A DNA stretch of 64,000 nt. It comes from Candidatus Aminicenantes bacterium. GTDB lineage: Bacteria > Acidobacteriota > Aminicenantia > Aminicenantales > UBA4085. Below are positions 18,336-64,000 of the stretch, in pieces. A program made the position numbers and the translations under genes. Each line of letters opens with the position of its first letter. Within the stretch, counting starts at the first letter, position 1. The stretch lies in NCBI GenBank assembly GCA_003141555.1, contig PLMN01000028.1, positions 2,785 through 66,784 of the forward strand. The letters run 5' to 3'. Under the pieces are notes generated by a model. It was not told where the DNA came from and did not search any database. It saw only the letters and a list, made by a program, of their open reading frames with translations.

Positions 18336-19451
18336 TTAGAGCTTGGCCGCCACGGCGGCGCCCATGTCGAGCGTCGTGGCGGCGCCGCCCATGTCGTAGG
18401 TCCGGACCTTGCCTTCCTTGATGACCTCGGCTACCGCCCCCTCGAGCGCGCGGGCCTTGTCCTTCTCGCCCAGCCACTCGAGCATCAGGACCGCGGCCAG
18501 GAACGTAGCCAGGGGGTTGACCTTGTAGAGGCCGGCGTATTTGGGGGCGGAGCCGTGGGTCGGCTCGAAGACGGCGTATTTGTCGCCGATGTTGCCCGCC
18601 GAGGCGAAGCCCAACCCGCCCACGAGCTGGGCAGCCAGGTCGGAGATGATGTCGCCGAACAGGTTCTCGGCCACCAGGACGTCGTAGTCCTGGGGGTTCT
18701 TGACGAGCCACATGCACATGGCGTCGATGTTGGCCTCCTTCATGGGGATGTCGGGGAACTGTTTGGCGATCTCGCGCGAAACGCTCAGCATCAGGCCGCC
18801 GGTCTCGCGGAGGACGTTGGGCTTTTCGACGATGGTCACGGACCGGCGCCCGGCCTTGCGGGCGTATTCGAAGGCCGCCCGGACAATGCGCTCGCAGCCC
18901 TTGCGGGTCATGATCCGGGTCGAGAGGGCGATCTCGTTCAGGGGGACATCCTTAAAGGCCTTCATCTTGGGGTGGATCATCAGCGCGTCCTTGACGGACT
19001 GCGGCAGCGGGAAGAATTCGACGCCGGCATACATTCCCTCGGTGTTCTCCCGGAAGATGACCAGGTCGATGTTGTCCCGATAATTCAGGGGATTTCCCGG
19101 ATAAGCCTTGCAGGGTCGGAGATTCGTATAGAGGTCGAACTCCTGGCGGAGTCGGACGATGGGGCTGAAGTAGGACAGGCCCTTGCTCTGGAGCGCGGGG
19201 GCGAGCTCCCGGTCCGCGTCGGCCCTGGGCTTGGATGTGATCGCCCCGAACAGGCAGCAATCGGTCTCCTTCAGGAGCTTGATCGTCCGATCCGGAAGGG
19301 CATTGCCCTCTTTGCACCAATATTGCCAGCCGATATCGCCGTATGTGTACACGGCGTCGACGGACAGCTTCTTGAGGACGGCCATGGCCGCTTCCACCAC
19401 TTCGATTCCGACGCCGTCGCCGGGCAGAACTGCGATCTTGTATTTCGCCAT
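18336..19451 (-). CDS. leuB: Isopropylmalate/isocitrate dehydrogenase-family decarboxylating dehydrogenase (LeuB-like)
   Basis: 371 aa. MAKYKIAVLPGDGVGIEV... and SPIVRLRQEFDLYTNLRP beta-decarboxylating dehydrogenase signature. Exact substrate (3-IPM vs isocitrate/homoisocitrate) cannot be decided from sequence alone. Confidence 0.75.
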   Translation of the reverse strand: MAKYKIAVLPGDGVGIEVVEAAMAVLKKLSVDAVYTYGDIGWQYWCKEGNALPDRTIKLLKETDCCLFGAITSKPRADADRELAPALQSKGLSYFSPIVRLRQEFDLYTNLRPCKAYPGNPLNYRDNIDLVIFRENTEGMYAGVEFFPLPQSVKDALMIHPKMKAFKDVPLNEIALSTRIMTRKGCERIVRAAFEYARKAGRRSVTIVEKPNVLRETGGLMLSVSREIAKQFPDIPMKEANIDAMCMWLVKNPQDYDVLVAENLFGDIISDLAAQLVGGLGFASAGNIGDKYAVFEPTHGSAPKYAGLYKVNPLATFLAAVLMLEWLGEKDKARALEGAVAEVIKEGKVRTYDMGGAATTLDMGAAVAAKL

Positions 19452-19611
19452 GATGGGCTCCTTTTGGTATTGAAAGGGAAGACTATTTTATCCGCAGGGC
19501 CGAGTGCGGTCAACCTTATCTGAGGCTCAAGTTGACATTGCATCATCAGATTATCCGGCATTTCGAGTCACTGAGATAATAGTTCTAAAAATAGCGCTGC
19601 AATTCGTTGAC

Positions 19612-19653
19612 TTGACAAATCCACATCACTGCTCTATCTTCGTAGAGCAGTGA
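19612..19653 (+). promoter_or_regulatory. Putative promoter (TTGACA-N17-TATCTT) overlapping a perfect 11-bp inverted repeat operator TCACTGCTCTA-N5-TAGAGCAGTGA
   Basis: TTGACA at 19612-19617. The palindrome arms at 19627-19637 and 19643-19653 overlap the GTG start of the GntR gene. This is a typical YtrA-type autoregulatory operator. Confidence 0.45.
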
Positions 19654-20078
19654 TTAGATCCAATAAAATTCTGAATTTCAAAGTTGACGCCAAATCGGCT
19701 ATCCCGGCCTACGAGCAGATTAAACGTGCCATCAAACTGGCCATCGTCTCTGGTTACTTGGAGGAAGGAGACCAACTCATGTCTCTCCGGGAGCTCGCCC
19801 TGAAGCTCACCGTCAATCCCAACACTATAATCAAGGTTTATGACCAACTCGAGACAGAGGATTTCATCTATTCCAAGCCGGGGGCAGGCTATTACGTCAA
19901 GGTTGATCACGCCAGAATCCTACCGAGAAGACGCGATCTTTTTCAAGAAATCACTGAGGAATATATTTCGAAAGCTCTGCAACTTGGATACTCCGGCGAA
20001 GACATGTCCAAAGAAATTTCCCAATTAACTGGCGAGAACATGTTGATTCGGGACAGAAAGGATAAATCTGATGATTGA
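19650..20078 (+). CDS. GntR-family transcriptional regulator, YtrA subfamily
   Basis: 142 aa. Winged-HTH SAIPAYEQIKRAIKLAIVSGYLEEGDQLMSLRELALKLTVNPNTIIKVY and a short C-terminus. Sits upstream of an ABC ATPase/permease. Confidence 0.75.
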   Translation: MIRSNKILNFKVDAKSAIPAYEQIKRAIKLAIVSGYLEEGDQLMSLRELALKLTVNPNTIIKVYDQLETEDFIYSKPGAGYYVKVDHARILPRRRDLFQEITEEYISKALQLGYSGEDMSKEISQLTGENMLIRDRKDKSDD

Positions 20079-20895
20079 ATTAGACGAGGTGTCGTTCAAC
20101 TATGGTAAGAAAATGGTCTTTAAAAACTTCAACCTCCGGATACCCCATGGTCAGGTCTGCCTAATTACCGGAATTAATGGTGTGGGGAAAAGCACGTTGT
20201 TGCGATTGATAGCGGGGGTGCTAAGACCGGCTAAAGGAGAGATCCGGTTTGATCCAGATATGGGAGTTGATCCCAGAGCTAAAATAGGGTTCATCTCAGA
20301 TGCCTTGAGCCTTTATGATAGCCTGACGATCACGCAGGCCATCGATTTCCACAAGTCCGTCTATACCCTTCCTTCATTTGATGATTCCTTAATCCGGCAC
20401 ACTAAAATTGGCCGCGACCAGAAGATTAAAGAGTTATCTACAGGACAACGCACCATATTCCACCTGAGCTTAGTTCTTTCCATCGAACCCGAGATTCTGT
20501 TGATCGATGAGATCATCCATTCTATTGATGCCTATTTGCGAAAAATCTTTCTAGAACAGATTGTCCAACTCTTAATAAAACGATCCGTTACCGTAGTCAT
20601 GGTTAACGTTAACTTCCATGATATCGAACACCTGGTGGAAAGGGTGATTCTGTTGAAGTCCGGTAAGATCGCTGTTGATGAAAAAATTGAAGAGCTCAAG
20701 ACCAAGATCAAGAAGATCATTTCCGGGAACCGCCCGGAATTCATGAATATTCTCTCACAAATCGATTATTCAGACCATTCAGAGTTTTACGTATACCCCT
20801 ATATGGACGATCTCAAAGAGAAAATCGACGGCGAAATTGTTGATCTGAATTTAACGGAGATCGTTTCGGCCTTCATCGGAGGCGAATATGCTTAA
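20071..20895 (+). CDS. ABC transporter ATP-binding protein
   Basis: Walker A GINGVGKSTLL, degenerate signature LSTGQRT, Walker B LLIDEI. Low GC. Confidence 0.8.
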   Translation: MIELDEVSFNYGKKMVFKNFNLRIPHGQVCLITGINGVGKSTLLRLIAGVLRPAKGEIRFDPDMGVDPRAKIGFISDALSLYDSLTITQAIDFHKSVYTLPSFDDSLIRHTKIGRDQKIKELSTGQRTIFHLSLVLSIEPEILLIDEIIHSIDAYLRKIFLEQIVQLLIKRSVTVVMVNVNFHDIEHLVERVILLKSGKIAVDEKIEELKTKIKKIISGNRPEFMNILSQIDYSDHSEFYVYPYMDDLKEKIDGEIVDLNLTEIVSAFIGGEYA

Positions 20896-21616
20896 GAAGG
20901 AATGCTTCGAGGCCATAAAGAAACTCCTCGAATCACTGCTTATCTTGGTTGTTATTCCCCTGGCGATTGTATGGGACAAGCTCGTTGCCCATAGCGGCTG
21001 GCCGTATGCGGATGTTTTCCAAGCAGGATGTATTGCGACACTGGTCATCTATGCCATTTATGCAGGGGCGACGATATTTCAGCCCGAGAGAAAAGATAAG
21101 GCATTTGAATATTTGTTTTCATTACCGCTGACCCGCTCTCGAATCGTTATGGCGAAGGTGTTGCCGCGATTCGTCATTCTCGAGATGCTTTTTCTGCTTT
21201 CGGTGGTACTCATCGGGCCTGGGGTTCTGGCCTCTGGAATAATTTTCATCTTACTTTTCTTTGGGGCCGTTTCTCTAAGCATCGCGGTAAACTCCGTCAT
21301 TCTTAATCTTATCGGAGTATCCTTTATATTTGGCGCTTTCCAGCCGTGCTGTAATATTATGTCCTTTCTTCTTGGGAAGCTCGGCGTGAATTTTCCCAAC
21401 GATTTAGCTTTCATATGCGTACAGATATGCGCTGCGTTGATCCTATTAGTTCCTTTATGGTTGGCGTTCTGGCTGACATTTAAGAAACTGGATGTCAGGC
21501 CCATAAGGCTACAGATGAATACTTACTATTTCATTCTATTACCGAGCTTGGCCGGTCTCGTCGCTTTCATCCTTTTATTTTACAGAAAAGCCATGTATTG
21601 GATCATGGCCCGATAA
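20888..21616 (+). CDS. ABC-2-type permease / polytopic membrane protein
   Basis: 242 aa, about 6 hydrophobic segments, translationally coupled to the ATPase. No soluble domains. Confidence 0.5.
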   Translation: MLKKECFEAIKKLLESLLILVVIPLAIVWDKLVAHSGWPYADVFQAGCIATLVIYAIYAGATIFQPERKDKAFEYLFSLPLTRSRIVMAKVLPRFVILEMLFLLSVVLIGPGVLASGIIFILLFFGAVSLSIAVNSVILNLIGVSFIFGAFQPCCNIMSFLLGKLGVNFPNDLAFICVQICAALILLVPLWLAFWLTFKKLDVRPIRLQMNTYYFILLPSLAGLVAFILLFYRKAMYWIMAR

Positions 21617-21631
21617 GTGATCATTAAGAAA

Positions 21632-21889
21632 TCAGCGATAGACTTTCCCCCGCGGCCGGATCCGGATGACGAGGACAATCAATTCCCGGTCGGAAAACGT
21701 GTAGATGACCCGATAATCGCCGCTTCGAAAACTCCAGAGCAGACCGTCTTTTCCCTTGAGCGGCTTCCCACCGCGAGGATCCGCTAAGAGCTTCTCCCGG
21801 ATTTCCTTAAGGATGCGCCGGGAGACATCCTGCCCGAGTCTTTTGAGGTCCTTCTTGACGCTCTTTTTGAAGAAAAGCCGATAGGTCAT
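21632..21889 (-). CDS. RelE/ParE-family type II toxin
   Basis: 85 aa. MTYRLFFKKSVKKDLKRLGQDVSRRILKEIREKL...DYRVIYTFSDRELIVLVIRIRPRGKVY is the typical RelE/ParE fold signature. Confidence 0.75.
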   Translation of the reverse strand: MTYRLFFKKSVKKDLKRLGQDVSRRILKEIREKLLADPRGGKPLKGKDGLLWSFRSGDYRVIYTFSDRELIVLVIRIRPRGKVYR

Positions 21890-22125
21890 CAGATATCCCA
21901 GCCGAGCTCGGCCAGAAATTCCGTCTCGCTAAGGATCTCGTCCTGCGCATCCTTCAGCCGCTCGACGGCGATCTGGTAGTCCGCCCAGGTCTCGAGATAT
22001 ATTTCGAGCGCATCCCGGACGATTTCGTTCGTATTGCGTTTCCGCGCCTCGGCGATTTCCTCGATCGAGGCGACCATTTTCATCGGCAGCCGCGCGGAGA
22101 TGGTCTTGGTCACTTGTTTTCCCAT
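21889..22125 (-). CDS. RHH-type antitoxin (CopG/ParD-like)
   Basis: 78 aa. MGKQVTKTISARLPMKMVASIEEIA... ribbon-helix-helix N-terminus. Overlaps the toxin start by 1 nt. Confidence 0.6.
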   Translation of the reverse strand: MGKQVTKTISARLPMKMVASIEEIAEARKRNTNEIVRDALEIYLETWADYQIAVERLKDAQDEILSETEFLAELGWDI

Positions 22126-57420: not shown

Positions 57421-57493
57421 GGCGAGGTAGCTCAGTCGGTAGAGCGAGGGACTGAAAATCCCTGCGTCGGCGGTTCAATTCCGTCCCTCGCCA
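57421..57493 (+). tRNA. tRNA-Phe (anticodon GAA)
   Basis: 73 nt. Acceptor stem GGCGAGG/CCTCGCC, D-arm GCTCAGTCGGTAGAGC, anticodon loop CTGAAAA (GAA), T-arm GGCGGTTCAATTCCGTC. CCA is not encoded. Confidence 0.9.
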
Positions 57494-57614
57494 TTCCCTT
57501 CCCCCTCCCCGAGAGATGCGCGAAAATCATTGTTTTTATTGATCTTTATACCTGTCTGGAGCCTCGGAAATACCGAGAAAGAGTGAGAAAATAAGCGAAA
57601 CGGGATGAAGTGAT

Positions 57615-57705
57615 TGTGGCGTAAAACTACGCCACAGTCGGCCCCGAGAAATTCTAATTATTGGATTTTGGTGAGGGCTATTGTGGCGTGGTTTTTAGGC
57701 CACAC
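57615..57705 (+). repeat. Two copies of ATTGTGGCGT, each followed by its inverted complement (hairpins TGTGGCGT-N6-ACGCCACA and TGTGGC-N11-GCCACA)
   Basis: Read directly at 57615-57635 and 57680-57705 in the AT-rich leader between the tRNA and the first islet gene. Confidence 0.4.
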
Positions 57706-57855
57706 TCCTGACGCAAGCATTTTTTCAGTTTGAGACACAATCTGGTCACAGTGCCCAAAAATTATTAGAGTAAAAATAGAAATAATTTAAGATTTTTTTC
57801 TCGTTCATCTGTAGCGACTTCCAGAGCCTTTTTTTGCCTCGCCCCGTCCTCTGAT

Positions 57856-57884
57856 TTGACATTTAATATAATATATTATATTAT
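57856..57884 (+). promoter_or_regulatory. Strong sigma70-like promoter TTGACA-N17-TATTAT (islet module 1)
   Basis: -35 at 57856-57861, -10 at 57879-57884. About 20 nt of upstream sequence is identical to the module-2 promoter. Confidence 0.5.
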
Positions 57885-57918
57885 TCATTTGGAAATTAGG
57901 ATTGAAAGGAGAAAAAGG

Positions 57919-58839
57919 ATGAACGAAGCGGAGGACGGAGGAACGGCGAAGGTGCGGCGGGCCAACCTGCAGAAGGGCTACGAAACGGAAAAGTGGGAAA
58001 CCGTATACGCCGGCATGCGGGCCCAGGGCAAAACGATTGCCCAGGCGAAGGCTGAGGCGTGGGCTCTGGTGGATTCCATGCGGCGGGCCGAGGCGATCCA
58101 GGACCGTGACGCCGTGCTGGACAAGGTGTTTGCGGAATCCGCTGGCGCTGACATGGTAGCCGCCGCCGCCCAGGCGCCGGGCTTGGATCCCGCGGCCGCT
58201 TCCCTGGCTTGGGAGAGCAAGGGCCAGGCCGAGTACTGCGAAGGCTGCGGCCAGCAAGCTTGCAACGTGATTCTGAAGATTGGCGAAATCTGTGGCGACC
58301 GGATCGAGCCCGACAGGGCCCTGGACGAGTACGTTGAGGCGAATACGGACCAGGCCCAGCCGATTGAGGACCCGGACACGGATGACGCCGGCTGCCCCAG
58401 CGCGGTTGACGAAAAGTCGCCGGCCCAGCTGGTCCGGTGCCCCAGTTGCGGAATGGCCATGTTGCGGCGCGAGCCCTGCGCGTATTGCGGCGCCCGGTTC
58501 GATGAACCGGCCTCGACCGAAGAAAACCTGGCCGCCGAAATGGCCGCCCAGAATAAGGCCAAGCGGGCCGCCAAAAGAGCCACGTTGAAGGGCGCTAAAG
58601 GCCGCCTCTCCAAGAATGCCATAAAGGAAATTTTAATGGCCTCTAAGGTATTCGCTGAGCCGCCCGCCCGCAAGAAGGCCCGCAAGGCCCGGGTTTCCAT
58701 GAAGCAGCCCAGCGAAGAAACGATCGACAAGTGGATGTTCGATGGCTACTGCAAGGCGACGGACGGCTGCAGGGTCGAGCCGGACGGCACGTGCGAGCAC
58801 GGCTGCAAGTCCTGGGCGCTTGTGCTGAATCTGATCTGA
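57919..58839 (+). CDS. Hypothetical protein with multiple CxxC zinc-ribbon-like motifs (306 aa)
   Basis: ATG 57919 with RBS AAAGGAG. Motifs CEGCGQQAC, CPSCG...CAYCG, and C..GC..C..C. Basic KR-rich segment. No recognisable family. Confidence 0.5.
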   Translation: MNEAEDGGTAKVRRANLQKGYETEKWETVYAGMRAQGKTIAQAKAEAWALVDSMRRAEAIQDRDAVLDKVFAESAGADMVAAAAQAPGLDPAAASLAWESKGQAEYCEGCGQQACNVILKIGEICGDRIEPDRALDEYVEANTDQAQPIEDPDTDDAGCPSAVDEKSPAQLVRCPSCGMAMLRREPCAYCGARFDEPASTEENLAAEMAAQNKAKRAAKRATLKGAKGRLSKNAIKEILMASKVFAEPPARKKARKARVSMKQPSEETIDKWMFDGYCKATDGCRVEPDGTCEHGCKSWALVLNLI

Positions 58840-58852
58840 AAGGGGAAATGCA

Positions 58853-59041
58853 GTGAAAGAATATTACAACGTGGGCGGGATGCAGGACCAAATTGAGAAG
58901 GGTCATTTTGCCATTATCCGGGATCGAAAAAGGCTTATGTCAGGGATGCCGTTGTACAAGGCCAAGGAATATGCAGAGAGATTCGGCGGCAAGGTCGTTG
59001 ACATGGAATCCCCTGCATGGGCCGGGCTGAAAGAGGAATGA
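58853..59041 (+). CDS. Small hypothetical protein (62 aa)
   Basis: ORF with RBS-like GGGGAAATG context. Stop overlaps the next start (ATGA). Confidence 0.35.
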   Translation: MKEYYNVGGMQDQIEKGHFAIIRDRKRLMSGMPLYKAKEYAERFGGKVVDMESPAWAGLKEE

Positions 59042-59460
59042 ACATGAGTGCTTTTATGCTGAGCGACTACGCCCTTTCCAAACTGGCCCGAGCCGCCCTG
59101 GCCGTGGCCCCTGACCTATTCGCTGGCTACAATGACGGGCACAAATCAATGACTATCTATGGCAGCCCGACGCCCGCCGAGTGGTTGGCCACGGACCTCT
59201 TTTTGCTCAACGGCCTGGCCATGCGGGCGCGATACGGCGAGGTCCACGACGCCGCTGAATTCCGCTACGAGGAATCCCGGGGCGGCCACGATACCGACGT
59301 CCGACTTTACAAGTCAATCCGCTGCTTTCTCTACCAGTGCAGCGAGGGCGACGTGCCTGAAAAGCCCTTGTTCAAGCTGATGGAGCAGTTTTCCGCGGAC
59401 GTTGCCGGTGATATAATCTGGGCACTCCCCAGCTGGGACGAGCTGCCCTGGGGGGAATGA
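59038..59460 (+). CDS. Hypothetical protein (about 140 aa)
   Basis: ATGA-coupled to both the preceding and the following gene. No family recognised. Confidence 0.4.
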   Translation: MNMSAFMLSDYALSKLARAALAVAPDLFAGYNDGHKSMTIYGSPTPAEWLATDLFLLNGLAMRARYGEVHDAAEFRYEESRGGHDTDVRLYKSIRCFLYQCSEGDVPEKPLFKLMEQFSADVAGDIIWALPSWDELPWGE

Positions 59461-59654
59461 GGATCAAAAAAATGGGCACAAGAGTCAAGAAAACGGACAA
59501 GCGGCCCCGCGGCAGGCCGGTTTCGACGGGTACCGGGAAGGGGATCTCGCTCTACCTTCCCGTCAAGCTGATACAGGCCTTGAAAGCGAAGGCGCCGAAG
59601 GGCCACACCCTGGAAGCGTTCATCCGGGAGATACTGGAATTCTATCTCTTGTAG
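59457..59654 (+). CDS. AT-hook + ribbon-helix-helix-like small DNA-binding protein (65 aa)
   Basis: KRPRGRPVSTGTGKGISLYLPVKLIQALKAKAPKGHTLEAFIREILEFYL: RGRP AT-hook followed by a beta-alpha-alpha RHH pattern. Paralog of 60761..60946. Confidence 0.5.
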   Translation: MRIKKMGTRVKKTDKRPRGRPVSTGTGKGISLYLPVKLIQALKAKAPKGHTLEAFIREILEFYLL

Positions 59655-60123
59655 TAATCGTACCAGTGGCCGGCCGCTGCGTCATGACGTATATTTCAGC
59701 CCGGATCGTCGCCGGGCCGCCTCCCCCTGCCCCGGTCAGCTCCCGCCAGCTTTTCTGAGGGCCAATCTTCCAGCTTTCCCTAGCTTCACGGCTGCATCCA
59801 AGTCCGGCGCGTTCGTCTGCTGGAAGGCCGCCCTCGATAGATGCTCGAAACACAGGAATCCAAGTCCCGTCATCGTCTGCATGATTTAGACGAGGGAAGG
59901 GGCTTTGAACAATCCCGCCGCCCTACCTGATGATACCATTTTCTCGAGGAAAATGCCTCCCAGGAAGAGACAGAAAGAGACTCAAAAAGACCATTTCTGT
60001 TACAATTTTAGGGACATTCATTTAATTTTCGGCGAGCAAAAACAAAAGATTTTATAAGATTTATTTGTCGTTGTATTTTCATCGATATACAGAACATTTT
60101 CTGGCAGCCGATCCCCTCCTGAT

Positions 60124-60152
60124 TTGACATTTAATATATTCTAATATATTAT
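60124..60152 (+). promoter_or_regulatory. Second copy of the TTGACA-N17-TATTAT promoter (islet module 2)
   Basis: -35 at 60124-60129, -10 at 60147-60152. Flanking CTGATTTGACATTTAATAT is identical to module 1. Confidence 0.5.
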
Positions 60153-60194
60153 ATGGCCATGATAAACAATGAAAAGGAAAAACAGGGGGCTAGA

Positions 60195-60443
60195 ATGGAA
60201 AAGCAGGCAGTCCATAATTCCAAATGCGTGGTCGAGTACGACCCCGAGCGGAAAGAAATTTTCGCTCGGGATTTAACCGACACATTCAACGAGCCGGCCA
60301 TTTATAGCAAAACGAAGCGCGGGATCCGGGCGGCTTGGGATGAGCTGACGAAAACCTTTACGCCTGAAACCCGACTCCACGATGTTGTCAAAACGCTGGA
60401 AGCGAAAAACATCCGGACGCACTACTGGTGCATGGTGGATTAA
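60195..60443 (+). CDS. Hypothetical protein (about 82 aa)
   Basis: ATG 60195 preceded by a GGGGG RBS. The upstream ATG at 60153 abuts the -10 element and is unlikely to be transcribed. Confidence 0.4.
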   Translation: MEKQAVHNSKCVVEYDPERKEIFARDLTDTFNEPAIYSKTKRGIRAAWDELTKTFTPETRLHDVVKTLEAKNIRTHYWCMVD

Positions 60444-60454
60444 AGGGGGGCATT

Positions 60455-60757
60455 ATGCCTGCATTTACAGCGAAGGGGAATGAACTCTTCATCGAGGGCC
60501 GCAAGGTCCTCGCGGGATGGGAATCGTTTTCAGGATGGTACTGGTTCGCGACGGAGAAGTCCGAGGAGCGGAAGCTCAGCGATGGCGGGGGCTCTGTCTT
60601 TGACGGGGTGGCTGTTGATGATACGATATGGTTCGGATTCATACAGGGCCAGGTGTCGGAATGGGGCTATTTCAGCGAAGCCGAGATCAGGCGGCTGGGG
60701 TCCAGAGCGTGGAGGATCAAAGAATGCGATCTCCCGTTCTCTGGCCGGAGAAGATAA
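60455..60757 (+). CDS. Hypothetical Trp/Gly-rich protein (about 100 aa)
   Basis: ATG 60455 with RBS AAAGGGGGG. No family recognised. Confidence 0.4.
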   Translation: MPAFTAKGNELFIEGRKVLAGWESFSGWYWFATEKSEERKLSDGGGSVFDGVAVDDTIWFGFIQGQVSEWGYFSEAEIRRLGSRAWRIKECDLPFSGRRR

Positions 60758-60760
60758 AAT

Positions 60761-60946
60761 ATGATCGCAAAGAAACTGAAATCAGCGAAGCCCCGGCGCG
60801 GCCGGCCTGTGTCCACGGGGACCGGGGTTTCGATTTCGCTCTATCTCCCAAAGCCAATGATGGACGCCCTTTTCAAGATGACGCCCAAGGGATCCACGCT
60901 CGGGGATACGATCCGGAAACTGATCGCCGAAAGGCTGGGCCGTTAG
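60761..60946 (+). CDS. AT-hook + RHH-like small DNA-binding protein (61 aa), paralog of 59457..59654
   Basis: KPRRGRPVSTGTGVSISLYLPKPMMDALFKMTPKGSTLGDTIRKLIAERL is collinear with the module-1 protein. Confidence 0.5.
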   Translation: MIAKKLKSAKPRRGRPVSTGTGVSISLYLPKPMMDALFKMTPKGSTLGDTIRKLIAERLGR

Positions 60947-61246
60947 CTTATTCCATGGCCAGCCGTTCCGGCCGGTCAGATGAACTGGCATCGTCGAGGT
61001 AAGGCAAGCTCCCTCGCTGGAAGGCCGGGGCTGACAGAGTTCGTATTTCGGATATCCGAGGCTCCGCATGGTCCCCATGTGATCAGCGATAATCATTATT
61101 CCCCGTCCAACGACGATTATTTAGATTCCATGAGCCGGGAAATATATTTCACTGATCACGTGAGTTACAAAAAGGTGCATTTCTGCTGAAAATAGAGAGT
61201 AGGGGAGGCTCTCTATGAGGCAAAGAACACTAGTTTCCTTGACGCG

Positions 61247-62425
61247 GTGCATGGAAGCGGTAAAATGAAAGCACGAGTTTGGGAGACATCTGTGAGCGGA
61301 AAAGATTGCGGGCTATCTGGGAAATCCCGCCGAATACCTCTTCGCAGGTTTCCCGCCCTGATCCAGAAAACGACTGTCGCCTTGCTCTTCGGAGGCCGCT
61401 CCGCGGAGCACGAGGTTTCGATCCGCTCGGCCGCCGCTGTCTTTCGCAACCTTGACCCGAAGAAATTCCGCGTCGCCGCGATCTACATCGACAAGTGCGG
61501 CCGCTGGAAGCGAGTCGCCTCTCCCCTGTTGCCTATCGAACGGCTGGCCGCCGGTCCGGCCTCCGATTTCCTGCCCTGGGCCGGGACAAAGTCCGCCCCT
61601 CCGATCCGGGCGGACATCTATTTCCCCGTGCTCCACGGACCTTACGGAGAGGACGGCACCATCCAGGGGCTCCTCGAGATGGCCGACGTCCCCTTCGTCG
61701 GGCCGGGGGTCCTCGGCTCCGCAGTGGGCATGGACAAGGCCGTGATGAAGGTCCTGTTCGAGGCCGCGGGCGTGCCGATCGTCCCCTTTCGCGTCGTCCG
61801 GGAGGCCGCCTGGCGGCGGGACCCTGGCGCCGTCCTCCGCGCCGTCCGGCGCGAGTTCGGGTTGCCGCTCTTCGTGAAGCCGGCGAATCTCGGCTCGAGC
61901 GTCGGTATCACCAAGGTCGCGGACCGCGCGGCGACGCGGGCCGCAATCGAGCTCGCGTTCGCTTACGACCGGAAGGTCCTCGTCGAAAAAGGCATCCGGG
62001 GCCGCGAACTCGAATGCAGCGTCCTGGGCAACGACGCGCCCGAAGCATCGCTCCCCGGCGAGGTCATCCCGCACGGCGAATTCTACGACCAAAACAGCAT
62101 GTACATCGCCGGCCGGACCGTCTTCTATATCCCCGCTCGCCTGCCCGCCGGCGTCGTGCAGGCCGTTCGGAAAGCAGCCGTGGCGGCCTTCACTGCCTGC
62201 GAATGCGAGGGCATGGCTCGCGTCGATTTCTTCCTCGAAGGAGGAAGCGGGCGGCTTTACGTCAATAAGCTCAATACCATCTCGAGCTTCACCGAGATCA
62301 GTATGTACCCCAAGCTCTGGGAGGCTAGCGGCCTGGCCTACCCCCGCCTCCTCGAACGGCTCCTCGGTCTCGGGTTCGAACGGCATAAAGCGAAAAAGCG
62401 ATGCATAGTGAGAACGCGGCCATGA
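61247..62425 (+). CDS. ddl: D-alanine--D-alanine ligase
   Basis: ALLFGGRSAEHEVSIRSAAAV N-domain and ATP-grasp motifs (LFVKPANLGSSVGI). Host-like high GC. The N-terminus as called may be over-extended by about 30 aa. Confidence 0.85.
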   Translation: MHGSGKMKARVWETSVSGKDCGLSGKSRRIPLRRFPALIQKTTVALLFGGRSAEHEVSIRSAAAVFRNLDPKKFRVAAIYIDKCGRWKRVASPLLPIERLAAGPASDFLPWAGTKSAPPIRADIYFPVLHGPYGEDGTIQGLLEMADVPFVGPGVLGSAVGMDKAVMKVLFEAAGVPIVPFRVVREAAWRRDPGAVLRAVRREFGLPLFVKPANLGSSVGITKVADRAATRAAIELAFAYDRKVLVEKGIRGRELECSVLGNDAPEASLPGEVIPHGEFYDQNSMYIAGRTVFYIPARLPAGVVQAVRKAAVAAFTACECEGMARVDFFLEGGSGRLYVNKLNTISSFTEISMYPKLWEASGLAYPRLLERLLGLGFERHKAKKRCIVRTRP

Positions 62426-62522
62426 GGACGTTCTCTGGTCGTCCTATCCCGAAATATCATTTCGCTTTGTTATGGAATCAAATTTCTGCGATAGACTACG
62501 AAGCTCATTCTCATATGTCACA

Positions 62523-62774
62523 TTAATTCCTTTTTCGTTCTAATAGCCCAAAAATAATCCCGTATAGAATTGCGATAACTAAAGCGAGGAGTATTACCGA
62601 AACTGTATTTGTGCTGGCGCTAATGTTAAATATTTTGATTACTGCCTTTGACCAATTCTCCAGCATGTTATAAAAATTAGGAAGGAATTTTCTTATTAAT
62701 TCACTTACCAGTAATCCGAATACAATACTCAATATAAAAGACGAACCATGATGGGCACCATGTCTCAGAGGCAA
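62523..62774 (-). CDS. Small two-TM membrane protein (83 aa), AT-rich
   Basis: Two hydrophobic helices. Lies in the low-GC terminal segment next to clpP. Confidence 0.35.
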   Translation of the reverse strand: MPLRHGAHHGSSFILSIVFGLLVSELIRKFLPNFYNMLENWSKAVIKIFNISASTNTVSVILLALVIAILYGIIFGLLERKRN

Positions 62775-62802
62775 TAAGATGGCTCCTTTAGGATTTAAGA
62801 AC

Positions 62803-63363
62803 TCATCTTTTATTGAGTTTTAAAAGCGGAATTATGTGATCGATAATTCCGAATTTCTTCGCTTCCTTGACGTTTAGCCAGAGATCCCTTTGTATACTCT
62901 TTTCTATTATGTCTTTGGATTTTTTTGTATGAAACGAAAGAATCTTAATCATCCGATCTTCCAGATCGACTATATTTTCCGCAGCTATCTTTAAATCAGA
63001 CGTTGTCCCTGAAGTCTGCGCCCAAGCCTGATGCAGGAGAATCCGCGAGTTCATCGTCGCGTATCTTTTTCCGGATTCCCCAGCTGCAAGAATCCAAGCC
63101 GCCATCGAAAAAGCCGGGCCGATACAAAATGTCGATATTGGAGCCTCAATCATTTGAATACAGTCGTATATTGCTAATCCGGCATAAACACTTCCGCCGC
63201 CGCTTGAAATATAGAGCCGAATATCCGATTTTTTATCAAGACTATTCAATACCAACAAATTGGTAATGACATGATCAGCGCTGGAATTGTCAATCTCGCC
63301 GGAAAGATAAATAATCCGATTCTCTAACAGATGCTGCAGAGGAGACATCGATATTTTTGCCAA
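62803..63363 (-). CDS. clpP: ATP-dependent Clp protease proteolytic subunit (divergent, low-GC copy)
   Basis: 186 aa. Ser-His-Asp triad positions conserved (GPAFSMAAW, RILLHQAW, IQRDLW). Very AT-rich, in contrast to the host genes. Confidence 0.8.
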   Translation of the reverse strand: MAKISMSPLQHLLENRIIYLSGEIDNSSADHVITNLLVLNSLDKKSDIRLYISSGGGSVYAGLAIYDCIQMIEAPISTFCIGPAFSMAAWILAAGESGKRYATMNSRILLHQAWAQTSGTTSDLKIAAENIVDLEDRMIKILSFHTKKSKDIIEKSIQRDLWLNVKEAKKFGIIDHIIPLLKLNKR

Positions 63364-63377
63364 TACAATCTCCTTTC

Positions 63378-64000
63378 TTATCGATACTTTATTTTGGCGA
63401 TTTTTACCCTGTTTTTTTTTAGTTCTCTATCGAACGAAATACTTTCGATCGCATCCCAATCCGAGCCGAGTTTGCATTCCGCCAGAATCGATCCCAATTG
63501 CTCGTCCAAGACGTGGTTAAGCTTTCTGGCTCCATATTCCTTACTAAAACCTTCTTCGATAATGAGATCTATCGCTTTTTCCGATAAAAATAAAATCTTT
63601 TCGTTTTGTTTTTCCAATTGCTGGCGTTTTTGTTCTATAAAGCCCTTCATCATTTCTCTGCTTAATGGTTTCAAAATCAATATTTCATCTATCCTTCCAA
63701 GGAACTCGGGGGGAAATACGTTTCTAACCTCCTCTTGAACCCCGGCTTTTATGTCCTCCCAGCCTTTATTAGCTCTTGGATAATCGATGATGGCATCTCG
63801 GCCGCTGAAGCCGATATTTGCGGTCATAAGAATAGTAGTGCTATCGAAATATAGTTCGTTGCCGAGGTAGTCTAGTATTCTTCCTGCGTCGAATATCTGA
63901 AGGAAAAGCATCCAGATCTCTCGACTCGCTTTTTCAATCTCATCGAGAAGAAGAATCGCGTTTGGCTTGCTGCGGATTTGATAAGTGAGAAAAGGTACTT
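63378..64000 (-). CDS. ClpA/ClpC-type AAA+ chaperone, C-terminal part (5' end lies beyond the window)
   Basis: The D2 sensor-2/small domain PEFLGRIDEILILKPLS and ..EYGARKLNHVLDEQL are present. The frame stays open upstream of the listed ATG through ..ILLLDEIEKASREIW (Walker B) to the window edge. Confidence 0.75.
   Translation of the reverse strand, partial: VPFLTYQIRSKPNAILLLDEIEKASREIWMLFLQIFDAGRILDYLGNELYFDSTTILMTANIGFSGRDAIIDYPRANKGWEDIKAGVQEEVRNVFPPEFLGRIDEILILKPLSREMMKGFIEQKRQQLEKQNEKILFLSEKAIDLIIEEGFSKEYGARKLNHVLDEQLGSILAECKLGSDWDAIESISFDRELKKNRVKIAKIKYR

What the first reader, a model, noticed from the sequence alone, without database searches (positions are those of the whole stretch)
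62430..64000. Very AT-rich terminal segment encoding a divergent but intact ClpP and a ClpA/ClpC-like ATPase
Composition drops far below the host level right after ddl. The ClpP retains the Ser-His-Asp triad but is highly diverged from typical sequences. Its ATPase partner runs off the window. A small two-TM protein sits between ddl and clpP. This looks like a horizontally acquired accessory protease/unfoldase pair and possibly the edge of a larger island.
Basis: seen in the sequence. Interest (0 to 1): 0.55.

Follow-up and report, generated by a model that had tools for sequence, protein, structure and literature searches.

The report
Imported stripped-down Clp protease operon
The last 1.6 kb of the window is the start of a 4-kb low-GC insert in a high-GC (Aminicenantes-like) genome, carrying a foreign three-gene Clp protease module (unfoldase, peptidase, small membrane protein) from a rare, undescribed branch of Clp proteases that lacks the usual gate and substrate-recognition parts and whose distant relatives often sit in antiviral gene clusters.

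Summary
Window 62430-64000 has 39.7% GC against 61.8% for the window, the lowest of 1249 sliding windows. On the minus strand it encodes an 83-aa two-TM protein, a 186-aa ClpP and the last 206 codons of a Clp ATPase. Other assemblies of the same DNA extend the contig. The ATPase is 603 aa, and the low-GC islet is about 4.0 kb (to about 66,465), followed by mosaic DNA.

Horizontal acquisition is supported. GC3 is 0.32-0.49 in the islet and 0.79-0.90 in host genes. The closest homologues (ClpP 69-89%, ATPase 59-74%) lie on uniformly 35-38% GC contigs, one from a Lentisphaera MAG. Relatives of the host, found through ddl, show no such pair.

The pair is not a standard ClpCP:
- The ClpP keeps Ser86-His111-Asp160 but lacks the N-terminal gating hairpin.
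- The ATPase has two intact AAA+ rings but no N-domain, no M-domain and no GYVG pore loop in ring 2.
- It has I-D-Y where ClpC has its ClpP-docking A-G-F.
- Both proteins score below every NCBIfam Clp cut-off.

The ATPase clade is rare, about 17 of 9181 Hsp100-like representatives. Four more distant loci place clade members in defence contexts: a type III-B CRISPR operon, RT-Cas1, and NADase, caspase, PNP and PRTase genes. Function in this genome is untested. The adjacent ddl looks like a displaced, inactivated copy.

The parts
62426..62522 (.). AT-rich junction between the ddl stop and the end of the imported module. The GC change point lies at about 62,385-62,440.
   Evidence: Change-point estimate. 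DNA homology to relatives' ddl ends at 62430-62433. DNA homology to the L004 module ends at L002 10824, which is window 62525. No terminator-like site or flanking repeat above chance was found.
62523..62774 (-). Third gene of the module: an 83-aa protein with two predicted transmembrane helices, function unknown.
   Evidence: ORF. It is 67-69% identical from end to end to the gene at the same position after clpP in L004 and L006. The N-terminus of a 314-aa protein in L007 is also homologous. No Pfam, NCBIfam or PADLOC match. GC 34.5%, GC3 0.32.
62803..63363 (-). ClpP-family serine peptidase, 186 aa, with a TTG start preceded by AAGGAG at 63370-63375. Triad Ser86 (63106-63108), His111 (63031-63033), Asp160 (62884-62886). 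The N-terminal axial gating hairpin is absent.
   Evidence: Pfam CLP_protease 2e-60. Below all NCBIfam ClpP cut-offs. Alignments to solved ClpPs start at query residue 10, which matches residue 21-25 of the solved chains. All 24 aligned members of the clade lack the 'IPxVVExTxRGE' segment that the 8 canonical ClpPs in the alignment have. In the AlphaFold model (pLDDT 91.9) helix A starts at residue 8. Residue coordinates checked.
63378..64000 (-). C-terminal 206 residues (398-603) of a 603-aa double-ring Clp/Hsp100 ATPase. The gene continues to window-equivalent 65,189. This part contains the ring-2 Walker B (Asp416/Glu417, 63939-63944), sensor-1 Asn458 (63816-63818), the putative ClpP-docking loop Ile468-Asp469-Tyr470-Pro471 (63777-63788), the Arg finger Arg499 (63693-63695) and sensor-2 Gly-Ala-Arg 553-555 (63525-63533).
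   Evidence: AAA_2 and ClpB_D2-small hits. Full gene at L002 8160-9971; L002 is identical to the window over the 11,198 overlapping bases. Alignments to S. aureus ClpC and to canonical references. AlphaFold model pLDDT 85.2, with residues 469-472 below 50 inside a coil spanning 459-476. The best Foldseek matches are ClpC chains from ClpC-ClpP complexes. Coordinates checked.
61332..62433 (+). Context and left boundary: an isolated 1.1-kb patch of Aminicenantes-type DNA holding a ddl copy (ORF 61247/61361-62425) out of its usual synteny and with altered catalytic residues.
   Evidence: 85.5% DNA identity to L013 and L015 over exactly this stretch, and nothing else in the window matches them. Relatives have HU-ddl-ruvX-mltG. 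Replacements occur at sites conserved in all seven aligned homologues and in S. aureus Ddl: Glu to Lys in 'VNELNTIPGF' (now 'VNKLNTISSF') and Lys to Met in 'DKY'.

Best explanation
The segment is the first 1.6 kb of a roughly 4-kb horizontally acquired islet (window-equivalent about 62,440 to 66,465, 42% GC) in an Aminicenantes-like genome with about 65-70% GC in its core genes.

The core of the islet is a three-gene operon: a 603-aa unfoldase, a 186-aa ClpP and an 83-aa two-TM protein. The same three genes occur in the same order in a low-GC lineage, and more distant copies of the pair occur in Lentisphaera-like contigs, where the composition is native.

Proposed mechanism (inferred, not shown). 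The ATPase forms a double-ring hexamer with both rings hydrolysing ATP. It docks on the ClpP tetradecamer through a flexible ring-2 loop, Ile-Asp-Tyr-Pro, at the position of the ClpC/ClpA/ClpX [LIVA]-Gly-[FL] loop. It feeds unfolded polypeptide into a ClpP chamber whose axial pore has no N-terminal hairpin gate.

Both partners are altered at their interfaces. The ClpP has no gate. The ATPase has a non-canonical docking tripeptide, a remodelled ring-1 pore loop and no GYVG in ring 2. The pair is therefore probably a co-evolved, self-contained protease insulated from the host's own Clp system.

Without an N-domain, substrate choice must come from the pore entrance, the short conserved N-terminal peptide, or a partner such as the two-TM protein. 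Substrates and physiological role are unknown. The contexts of more distant clade members point to conflict or defence functions.
For: Shown directly:
- Composition and codon contrast.
- The ddl/islet join and the far border are present, with identical sequence, in an ENA megahit contig (170 kb) and a Logan contig (34.8 kb). The same ClpP, ATPase and ddl proteins are also recorded in NCBI, longest contig 207 kb.
- The module is conserved. L004 has the ATPase at 70%, ClpP at 87% and the two-TM protein at 67% identity in the same order. DNA homology covers exactly L002 8244-10824.
- Every homologous locus recovered for the close relatives is 35-38% GC throughout. L012 is a Lentisphaera MAG.
- Relatives of the host, found through ddl, lack the pair.
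- Expression signals: TTGACA-18-GATAAT (11 of 12) lies 40-80 nt upstream of the ATPase start, and AAGGAG lies 7 nt before the ClpP TTG start.
- Catalytic competence. The ClpP triad is invariant. Walker A and B, sensor-1, the Arg fingers and sensor-2 are intact in both ATPase rings.
- The docking-loop position carries I-D-Y, and this is the lowest-confidence stretch of the model apart from the N-terminal 14 residues.
- Other clade members keep IGL, VGL, AGL or GF at that site.
- The fold is closest to ClpC in ClpC-ClpP complexes.

From established knowledge: the N-terminal loops of ClpP plug and gate the axial pore and contact the ATPase (PMC9035409).
Against: - No integrase, transposase, att site or terminal repeat marks the islet borders. 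The 12-nt inverted repeats found there are at chance level and not collinear.
- The nearest locus whose DNA could be compared (L004) is only 70.8% identical, so the true donor has not been sampled.
- The ENA and Logan contigs that show the join come from sample pairs that recur together (ERZ27254251 and SRR7151610). They may be different assemblies of the same reads rather than independent observations.
- Ring 2 has no aromatic residue at the canonical GYVG position, and the docking tripeptide lacks the conserved Gly. Conventional translocation and docking are therefore not assured.
- Whether the genome has a housekeeping clpP elsewhere could not be checked.
Confidence: 0.8

Rival explanations
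1. The module is the effector, or part of one, of an antiviral or conflict system. An ungated ClpP with a dedicated unfoldase would be switched on by infection to destroy specific or bulk proteins. The copy in this window would be such a module, carried in a defence-island-like mosaic.
For: Contexts of more distant clade members:
- L020: an ATPase 46% identical lies inside a type III-B Cmr operon. Its start overlaps the end of a CARF (Cas_APE2256) + HD-CE gene, and Cas6 follows.
- L182: a short-N ClpP (60%) with an AAA_2 protein lies next to RT-Cas1, Cas2 and a DUF433/DUF5615 pair.
- L018 and L019: an ATPase and three short-N ClpP paralogues lie among NADase, cREC_REC, a HerA-like ATPase, Uma2, PARG, caspase and kinase genes.
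- L181: an ATPase (41%) lies between PNP_UDP_1 (overlapping start) and a phosphoribosyltransferase.
The window islet sits among orphan genes and other composition islands.
Against: - These are four anecdotal loci, not a census.
- None of the closest relatives (L004, L007, L008-L012) shows a known defence gene. Their neighbours are Liv-type ABC transporter genes or vWA/FtsZl1 genes.
- PADLOC gives only partial, domain-level ATPase hits (DolB, PDC-M37B) and nothing for the ClpP, the two-TM protein or the 295-aa protein.
- No CRISPR array or cas gene was found in the window or its extension.
- No ClpP-based defence system turned up in the literature searched.
Confidence: 0.22
2. The module is a silent or decaying passenger: acquired DNA that is not used by this host.
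For: Composition is far from the host's, with little sign of amelioration. The neighbouring ddl copy has lost conserved catalytic residues, so this region tolerates decay. The ATPase lacks the canonical ring-2 pore loop and the docking Gly.
Against: All three ORFs are full length. Their termini are conserved against homologues and every catalytic motif is intact. The unusual loops are shared across the clade, not lesions private to this copy. A strong promoter-like site and a Shine-Dalgarno sequence are in place.
Confidence: 0.12
3. It is the host's native, vertically inherited Clp protease that happens to be AT-rich.
For: No other clpP or Clp ATPase lies in the 64-kb window. The rest of the genome was not available.
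Against: GC3 is 0.42-0.47, against 0.79-0.90 in host genes. The closest homologues are all on low-GC contigs. Both proteins fall below every NCBIfam Clp cut-off. Relatives of the host show no such genes near ddl.
Confidence: 0.03
4. Assembly chimera: low-GC DNA from another organism wrongly joined to the end of an Aminicenantes contig.
For: The composition switch is abrupt and sits near the window end. One assembly (ERZ28656093) holds the ClpP only on a 771-bp scaffold.
Against: Both borders of the islet lie inside long contigs produced by different assemblers, with identical sequence (ENA k141_58250 of 170 kb and Logan SRR7151610_10205 of 34.8 kb). High-GC DNA resumes beyond the islet. The 771-bp scaffold breaks inside the islet, not at the junction.
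Confidence: 0.03

Closest known systems
ClpC-ClpP / ClpA-ClpP (class I Hsp100 unfoldase with the ClpP peptidase)
   Same: Two AAA+ modules with intact Walker A and B, Arg fingers and sensor motifs, plus a D2-small domain. An adjacent, co-oriented clpP with a Ser-His-Asp triad. Best sequence and fold matches are ClpC (E = 2e-90; Foldseek TMq 0.62-0.73 to ClpC in ClpC-ClpP complexes). The protein is collinear with ClpA residues 165-717.
   Different: No Clp_N domain and no M-domain. The ring-1 'KYR' loop is replaced by '[Y/W]xW-P-E-Y'. The ring-2 'GYVG' is absent. The docking tripeptide is I-D-Y rather than [LIVA]-G-[FL]. The ClpP lacks the N-terminal hairpin. Scores are far below the family cut-offs: 376 bits against 993 for ClpA and 1232 for ClpB; 181-203 bits against 249-309 for ClpP.
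N-domain-deleted ClpA (engineered, e.g. PDB 6uqe, 578 residues)
   Same: Same domain content (D1 + D2 + D2-small, about 580-600 residues). The query aligns in a single stretch, residues 38-593 to 8-570.
   Different: Those forms are derived from a full-length gene and keep the canonical pore and IGL loops. Here the short form is the native gene of a whole clade, with altered loops.
N-terminally truncated or ADEP-opened ClpP (laboratory-generated open-gate states)
   Same: The N-terminal loops that normally plug the axial pore are absent or displaced (PMC9035409).
   Different: Those are mutants or drug-bound states of canonical ClpP. Here the loss is natural, fixed in a clade of about 50 clusters at 90% identity, and paired with a dedicated ATPase. 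Whether the pore is actually open was not tested.
ClpI of Actinomycetota (Jiang and Schmitz 2023, PMC10149685)
   Same: A phylogenetically distinct extra class of double-ring Clp unfoldase, with subclasses that keep or lack the ClpP-docking motif. The clade here likewise splits between members with and without the hydrophobic-Gly-hydrophobic tripeptide.
   Different: ClpI retains an M-domain and a variable N-terminal domain and is actinobacterial. The ATPase here has neither domain, and its closest relatives come from low-GC, Lentisphaera-like contigs.
Dodola DolB / PADLOC candidate PDC-M37B (ClpB-like ATPases of defence systems)
   Same: Share the AAA_2-type module: partial hits at E = 3e-23 and 3.5e-25.
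   Different: The hits cover only one AAA module (profile positions 117-277 of 375 and 78-294 of 390). There is no DolA partner, and those systems have no ClpP.
CalpL and SAVED-CHAT (proteases signalled by type III CRISPR)
   Same: Precedent for proteolysis as a CRISPR type III output. One clade member (L020) follows a CARF-HD gene inside a Cmr operon (for CalpL and SAVED-CHAT).
   Different: Those are Lon- or caspase-type proteases fused to a sensor domain. The ATPase here has no sensor domain, and the window has no CRISPR-Cas genes.

Membership tests
ClpP (peptidase family S14, Pfam PF00574) | S14 ClpP/crotonase-like domain over the full core | tested here: met
   PF00574 E = 2e-60 over residues 7-178. 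Solved ClpP structures match at E about 1e-41. AlphaFold model pLDDT 91.9.
ClpP (peptidase family S14, Pfam PF00574) | Ser-His-Asp catalytic triad | tested here: met
   Ser86, His111 and Asp160 are invariant columns in alignment A2. Codons verified.
ClpP (peptidase family S14, Pfam PF00574) | N-terminal axial loop (beta-hairpin) that gates the pore and contacts the ATPase | tested here: not met
   Only 7-9 residues precede helix A. Alignments to PDB ClpPs begin at their residue 21-25. The 'IPxVVExTxRGE' segment is absent in all 24 aligned clade members.
ClpP (peptidase family S14, Pfam PF00574) | Score above the curated NCBIfam ClpP family cut-offs | tested here: not met
   Best scores are 202.7 bits against a cut-off of 249 (NF001368) and 181.5 against 308.6 (TIGR00493).
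ClpP (peptidase family S14, Pfam PF00574) | Tetradecamer assembly and peptidase activity | not testable with these tools
   Needs biochemistry or a multimer prediction.
ClpA/ClpC/ClpB class I Hsp100 ATPases | Two AAA+ modules with Walker A and B, Arg fingers and sensor motifs, plus a D2-small domain | tested here: met
   GEPGVGKT with DEIH in ring 1, and GPSGVGKT with LLLDEIEKA in ring 2. RRF, Arg499 and Gly-Ala-Arg 553-555 are present. AAA_lid_9, AAA_2 and ClpB_D2-small hits.
ClpA/ClpC/ClpB class I Hsp100 ATPases | N-terminal Clp_N (double Clp repeat) domain | tested here: not met
   The protein starts about 30 residues before the 'GEDLT' linker. There is no PF02861 hit. The canonical references carry about 150 extra N-terminal residues.
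ClpA/ClpC/ClpB class I Hsp100 ATPases | Coiled-coil M-domain (ClpC, ClpB, ClpE, ClpL) | tested here: not met
   There is a gap opposite ClpC residues about 424-466 and opposite the 60-80-residue insert of the reference sequences.
ClpA/ClpC/ClpB class I Hsp100 ATPases | Canonical pore-1 loops (ring 1 'KYR', ring 2 'GYVG') | tested here: not met
   Ring 1: 'SNSEYPWPEY' stands in place of 'AGTKYRGEFE'; an aromatic residue is kept, and the Trp is invariant among the 19 close members (W122) and Trp or Phe across the wider clade. Ring 2: 'GGSAHPEHPEVPF' stands in place of 'GAPPGYVGxxEGG', with no Tyr. The same holds in all 17 N-less representatives.
ClpA/ClpC/ClpX (the ClpP-binding subset) | ClpP-docking loop with a [LIVA]-Gly-[FL] tripeptide | tested here: inconclusive
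   A flexible loop exists at the right place (coil 459-476, pLDDT below 50 at 469-472), but it reads I-D-Y-P. Other clade members have IGL, VGL, AGL, IGM or GF there. Genetic linkage to clpP argues for docking, but binding was not tested.
ClpA/ClpB/ClpV/ClpK/ClpG named equivalogs (NCBIfam) | Score above the curated cut-off | tested here: not met
   ClpA 376.5 against 993; ClpB 376 against 1232; ClpV 361 against 885; ClpK 298 against 1900; ClpG 285 against 1900.
Known anti-phage systems (PADLOC-DB v2) | Full-length match to a system component, with the partner genes present | tested here: not met
   Only partial AAA-module hits to DolB and PDC-M37B. Nothing for the ClpP, the two-TM protein or the 295-aa protein. 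No DolA-like neighbour.
Type III CRISPR-Cas ancillary module | Adjacency to cas10/cmr/csm genes or a CRISPR array, or a CARF/SAVED sensor | tested here: not met
   No array-like repeats in the window or in L002. No cas or CARF domain among the neighbours scanned. The feature is met only in the distant relative L020.
Genomic island acquired by site-specific integration | Integrase or transposase, plus flanking direct repeats or a tRNA-derived att site | tested here: not met
   tRNA-Phe at 57421-57493 has no repeated 3' segment within 16 kb downstream. The 327-aa ORF beside it has no integrase domain. The repeats at the islet ends are at chance level.

The most novel reading that the evidence does not exclude
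The pair would represent an undescribed, minimal class of Clp protease. Its peptidase is naturally gate-less. Its double-ring unfoldase has no N-domain and no M-domain, lacks the canonical ring-2 Tyr pore loop, and carries a re-coded docking loop. In this reading the class serves as a proteolytic effector of prokaryotic immune or conflict systems. One member appears wired behind a CARF-HD sensor in a type III-B CRISPR operon. The module moves between phyla, here from a Lentisphaera-like lineage into Aminicenantes.
Probability: 0.22. Interest if true: 0.78.

Novelty: new variant of a known kind. Interest (0 to 1): 0.5.

Why it matters
As a case of gene transfer the segment is ordinary. The interest lies in what was transferred.

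Clp proteases are textbook machines and drug targets. Their regulation rests on two features: the N-terminal gate of ClpP, and docking and translocation loops of fixed sequence in the ATPase. This module belongs to a natural lineage that has dropped the gate, dropped both substrate-selecting domains and rewritten both pore loops and the docking loop, yet keeps every catalytic residue and tight operon linkage. That offers three things:
1. A natural experiment on which parts of the Clp design are dispensable.
2. A candidate orthogonal protease pair for synthetic biology.
3. If the defence-island contexts of its relatives hold up, the first ClpP-based immune effector.

The finding also shows that this region of the host genome is a patchwork, down to a displaced and apparently inactivated ddl copy. 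That matters for annotating the MAG.

Tried and rejected
1. Scans of metagenome contigs and viral contigs with the ATPase alignment. The best viral hit, L101, is a 726-aa ClpC with an N-domain, GYVG and LGF in a jumbo-phage-like contig. These scans gave nothing for the clade.
2. The genome-contig scan found a single locus, the Lentisphaera MAG L012. The window's own genome was not returned.
The region past window-equivalent 73,348 is unseen.
4. An island integrated at tRNA-Phe: no integrase domain and no att repeat.
5. Terminal repeats of the islet. Two exact 12-nt inverted pairs sit near the ends (L002 7047/10814 and 7137/10866). About five such pairs are expected by chance in AT-rich DNA of this size, and their order is not that of a terminal inverted repeat.
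6. Phage origin. PHROGs matches the ClpP only to head-maturation proteases, more weakly (5e-36) than Pfam matches ClpP, and gives no meaningful match for the neighbours (only a marginal one, E = 0.005, for the two-TM protein).
7. Annotation of the 295-aa divergent ORF and of the 419-, 297- and 229-aa proteins further on. Pfam, NCBIfam, PADLOC and PHROGs gave no significant match (Pfam and NCBIfam for all four; PADLOC for all four; PHROGs for three of them). No BLAST similarity to the cREC protein of L018.
8. Literature searches for a gate-less natural ClpP, a Clp component in type III CRISPR accessory catalogues, or Clp genes in FtsZl1/vWA operons found no description.
Full report
**1. The observation**

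The sequence from 62430 to 64000 is 39.7% GC, against 61.8% for the whole window. Of 1249 sliding windows of the same length (mean 62.2%, sd 6.0%), none is as low (profiles). The switch is abrupt. A two-segment fit puts it at about 62,385, and homology to related ddl genes ends at 62430-62433, a few bases after the ddl stop at 62425.

Three genes lie on the minus strand:
- an 83-aa two-TM ORF at 62523-62774;
- a ClpP at 62803-63363;
- the 3' part of a Clp/Hsp100 ATPase at 63378 to beyond 64000.

The ClpP start is the TTG at 63363, with AAGGAG seven bases upstream at 63370-63375. The closest homologues begin with the same M[A/S]KISMSPLQ. The triad Ser86/His111/Asp160 is present and invariant across 32 aligned sequences.

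**2. Extending the contig**

The exact ClpP sequence occurs on longer public contigs: ENA k141_58250 (170 kb), Logan SRR7151610_10205 (34.8 kb) and an NCBI contig of 207 kb. Locus L002 overlaps the window over 11,198 bases without a mismatch. L003 is identical to L002 over 15,215 bases.

Window coordinate = 73,349 minus L002 coordinate. With that conversion:
- The ATPase is 603 aa (L002 8160-9971, window-equivalent 63378-65189).
- A sigma-70-like TTGACA-18-GATAAT (11 of 12) lies at L002 8079-8108.
- A 295-aa orphan ORF is transcribed divergently (L002 7091-7978).
- The low-GC block ends at window-equivalent about 66,465, so the islet is about 4.0 kb at 42% GC.

Beyond the islet come:
- a methyltransferase and a signal-peptide protein (56% GC);
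- a sigma-54-type AAA protein (63% GC);
- further orphan genes (47-49% GC).

Both borders of the islet lie inside long contigs built by two different assemblers. That makes a chimera unlikely, although the assemblies probably share the same reads.

**3. Where it came from**

GC3 values:

| Genes | GC3 |
|---|---|
| Islet genes | 0.32-0.49 |
| Host core genes in the window | 0.79-0.90 |
| Homologues on other contigs | 0.25-0.43 |

ClpP homologues at 69-89% identity and ATPase homologues at 59-74% exist. Every such locus with recoverable flanks (L004-L012) is 35-38% GC across the whole contig. There the genes have native composition. L012 is from an 'uncultured Lentisphaera sp.' MAG.

L004 carries the same trio in the same order: ATPase 70%, ClpP 87%, two-TM protein 67%. 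DNA similarity to the window is 70.8% and covers exactly ATPase to two-TM gene, L002 8244-10824. The transferred unit is therefore these three genes. The 295-aa ORF is not part of the conserved module. In a neighbour-joining tree the window ClpP nests with P0002 and P0003 inside this low-GC subclade.

The host is Aminicenantes-like. The named ddl hits are Candidatus Aminicenantes at 62-63% identity, and unnamed relatives reach 72-86%. Three such relatives (L013/L014, L015, L016/L017) share the order pyrK-pyrD-pyrF-Yip1-x-HU-ddl-ruvX-mltG and have no clp genes within 10 kb on either side.

No integrase, att site or meaningful terminal repeat was found. The route of insertion is unknown.

**4. 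What the two proteins are**

*The ClpP.* It is a clear S14 peptidase: Pfam 2e-60, PDB ClpPs at about 1e-41, AlphaFold pLDDT 91.9. It aligns to solved ClpPs only from their residue 21-25. Its helix A begins at residue 8. It therefore lacks the 11-16 residues that form the axial plug and beta-hairpin.

All 24 aligned members of its clade (P0001-P0049, 48-89% identity) share this short N-terminus. The eight canonical ClpPs in the same alignment have 'IPxVVExTxRGE'. The clade also differs in otherwise conserved motifs:
- ISSxGGS for INSPGG;
- GPAFSMAAW for GxAASMAA;
- HQA for HQP;
- RDLW for RDR[FY].

It scores below every NCBIfam ClpP cut-off. In canonical ClpP the N-terminal loops plug and gate the pore and become ordered on ATPase or ADEP binding (PMC9035409).

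*The ATPase.* It has two complete AAA+ modules: Walker A and B, Arg fingers, sensor-1 and sensor-2. It has no Clp_N domain and no M-domain. It is collinear with ClpA residues 165-717, while each ring is most similar to ClpC, ClpB or ClpE. Its AlphaFold model (pLDDT 85.2) matches ClpC chains from ClpC-ClpP cryo-EM complexes best, with TMq 0.62-0.73.

Three functional loops depart from the canon:
1. Ring-1 pore loop: 'AGTKYRGEFE' becomes 'SNSEYPWPEY'. The Trp is invariant among the 19 close members (W122) and is Trp or Phe across the wider clade.
2. Ring-2 pore loop: 'GAPPGYVGxxEGGxLT' becomes 'GGSAHPEHPEVPFLT', with no aromatic residue at the Tyr position. This holds in all 17 N-less representatives.
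3. Docking loop: where S. aureus ClpC has its ClpP-docking A-G-F, the window protein has I-D-Y-P. The site lies in a coil (459-476) that holds the lowest-confidence residues of the model outside the N-terminal 14 residues.

Within the clade the docking site varies. About half the members keep a hydrophobic-Gly-hydrophobic tripeptide (IGL, VGL, AGL, IGM, GF). The window subclade has I-[D/E/N/V/G]-[Y/F/Q/L]-P.

The protein scores far below all curated Hsp100 cut-offs: ClpA 376 against 993, ClpB 376 against 1232.

An exhaustive HMMER pass over 1.84 billion cluster representatives found 9181 Hsp100-like proteins at E no greater than 1e-30. Only about 17 share the N-less, roughly 600-aa collinear form (motifs). 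The clade is rare.

**5. How it probably works**

*Shown:* an operon with its own promoter-like site and Shine-Dalgarno sequence; intact catalytic machinery in both proteins; conserved gene order; a flexible loop at the docking position.

*Inferred:* the ATPase hexamer docks on the ClpP tetradecamer through the I-D-Y-P loop and delivers unfolded chains into a chamber without a gate. Both faces of the interface are altered, so the pair probably works only with itself and is insulated from the host's Clp system.

With ring 2 lacking its Tyr paddle, ring 1 (aromatic residues kept) may do the gripping and ring 2 may act mainly as a docking and ATP-driven ring. This is speculation.

Without an N-domain there is no site for MecA-, ClpS- or McsB-type adaptors. 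Selectivity must lie elsewhere. Candidates are the conserved short N-terminal peptide ('YP...L..D.IL.KVGEDLT') and the co-transcribed two-TM protein, which could tether the protease to the membrane or regulate it. The two-TM protein is conserved from end to end with L004 and L006, and it recurs as the N-terminus of a larger protein in L007.

**6. Context of relatives**

The closest relatives give no clear functional clue. L004 lies beside Liv-type ABC transporter genes. L008-L012 and L007 lie beside vWA and FtsZl1 (Tubulin_2) genes. The vWA/FtsZl1 pairing is a known operon type of unknown function, and its description does not mention Clp (PMC2875224).

More distant members are striking:
- L020 has an ATPase 46% identical to the window's inside a Cmr (type III-B) operon. 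Its start overlaps the end of a 687-aa CARF + HD-CE gene, and Cas6 follows.
- L182 has a short-N ClpP beside RT-Cas1 and Cas2.
- L018 and L019 have an N-less ATPase and three short-N ClpP paralogues among NADase, cREC_REC, HerA-like, Uma2, PARG, caspase and kinase genes.
- L181 has the ATPase between a PNP_UDP_1 gene and a phosphoribosyltransferase gene.

Two different N-less ATPase lineages, 26-28% identical to each other, pair with short-N ClpPs.

These four loci suggest a conflict or defence role for the wider clade, but they are not a census. PADLOC gives only partial AAA-module hits. The window and its extension have no CRISPR array or cas gene. I found no published ClpP-based defence system or Clp accessory of type III CRISPR. 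I give this reading about 0.2.

**7. Comparison with known systems and novelty**

The module works like a ClpCP or ClpAP protease. It fails several defining features of those families: the N-domain, the M-domain, canonical pore loops, the docking tripeptide, the ClpP N-terminal gate and all curated score cut-offs. I therefore file it as a new variant of a known kind, not as ClpC, ClpA or canonical ClpP.

The nearest precedents are:
- laboratory N-domain-deleted ClpA;
- open-gate ClpP mutants and ADEP-bound ClpP;
- the recently named ClpI class, which keeps its N- and M-domains (PMC10149685).

The horizontal transfer itself is ordinary.

**8. The ddl next door**

Only 61332-62433 of the window is similar (85.5% DNA identity) to the ddl regions of relatives. 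The HU gene upstream and ruvX-mltG downstream are missing.

The encoded protein differs from all seven aligned homologues and from S. aureus Ddl at sites conserved in all of them. In E. coli DdlB numbering, recalled from memory:
- the omega-loop Lys (DKY becomes SMY, DdlB Lys215);
- the Mg-binding Glu (NELN becomes NKLN, DdlB Glu270);
- the following Pro-Gly, which becomes Ser-Ser.

A 72%-identical ddl with normal synteny occurs in the same samples. It could belong to this genome or to a co-resident relative. The window ddl is probably a displaced, inactive copy. The 'host level' DNA just before the islet is therefore itself a 1.1-kb patch inside a mosaic that begins near tRNA-Phe at 57421.

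**9. Verdict**

The added value is the anatomy of the pair and the rarity and contexts of its clade.

Confidence is about 0.8 that this is an acquired, self-contained accessory Clp module. The mechanism is inferred and the role unknown. Interest is 0.5.

Noticed in passing
window 61247-62425 (homologous stretch 61332-62433): The ddl copy is out of its conserved synteny (HU-ddl-ruvX-mltG in relatives). It carries replacements at sites conserved in all compared homologues: omega-loop Lys to Met, Mg-binding Glu to Lys, and Pro-Gly to Ser-Ser. It is probably an inactive, displaced copy. A 72%-identical ddl with normal synteny is present in the same samples (L016, L017).
   Followed up: partly
window 132-1340 (+): Intact Mutator-family (IS256-like) transposase, Pfam Transposase_mut E = 2e-104, at the start of the window in a 55-57% GC stretch (1-6 kb).
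   Followed up: no
window about 19000-22000: A second low-GC islet (46-48% GC) holding an ABC ATPase (20071-20895) and an ABC-2 permease (20888-21616). It is inserted between an isopropylmalate/isocitrate dehydrogenase-like gene and an aconitase-family gene.
   Followed up: no
window 57421-61200: tRNA-Phe (57421-57493) is followed by about 3.7 kb of orphan ORFs of mixed GC. They include two paralogous small proteins that share 'RGRPVSTGTG.SISLYLP' (59457-59654 and 60761-60946). Each starts at the stop of an unrelated upstream orphan ORF. No integrase domain and no att repeat were found.
   Followed up: partly
L020 1-11559 (NCBI GCA_965648965.1, CBFGJE010000003.1): An N-less Clp-type ATPase (616 aa, 46% identical to the window's, docking loop T-V-G-F) lies inside a type III-B Cmr operon. 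Its start overlaps the end of a 687-aa CARF (Cas_APE2256) + HD-CE gene, and Cas6 follows. No clpP is adjacent. I found no description of such an accessory gene.
   Followed up: partly
L018 / L019 1-16579: A high-GC (68%) locus with an N-less ATPase (634 aa) and three short-N ClpP paralogues (236, 192 and 192 aa). They are interleaved with NADase_transloc, cREC_REC, a DUF87/HerA-like ATPase, Uma2, PARG, a caspase and a 1023-aa protein kinase. The setting looks like a conflict or defence island.
   Followed up: no
L008-L012 (for example L008 375-8490) and L007 8001-13169: In low-GC Lentisphaera-like contigs the ATPase-ClpP pair lies directly next to vWA and FtsZ-like (Tubulin_2 / FtsZl1) genes. 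This holds in two loci whose ATPases are only 27% identical to each other. The published account of vWA/FtsZl1 operons does not mention Clp genes.
   Followed up: partly
L002 707-5225 (window-equivalent about 68,100-72,600): Three consecutive proteins have receiver-like N-termini (ILLFDDD, ISIVDSS, ILVIDDM). The last is a sigma-54-type AAA protein (631 aa) with no detectable HTH. PADLOC matches only its AAA part to RtcR/PspF-like profiles. The first two have no family match.
   Followed up: partly
L181 1067-4783: A clade ATPase (619 aa, 41% identical) is flanked by a PNP_UDP_1 gene (overlapping start) and a phosphoribosyltransferase gene, downstream of an XRE-type HTH. This is a possible nucleotide-targeting conflict module without a ClpP.
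   Followed up: no
L001 (ERZ28656093 scaffold_134139, 771 bp) = window 62770-63540: A third assembly, labelled WOOD18-1, holds the ClpP only on a 771-bp scaffold that breaks inside the islet at both ends. This suggests low coverage or strain variation of the islet in that dataset.
   Followed up: no
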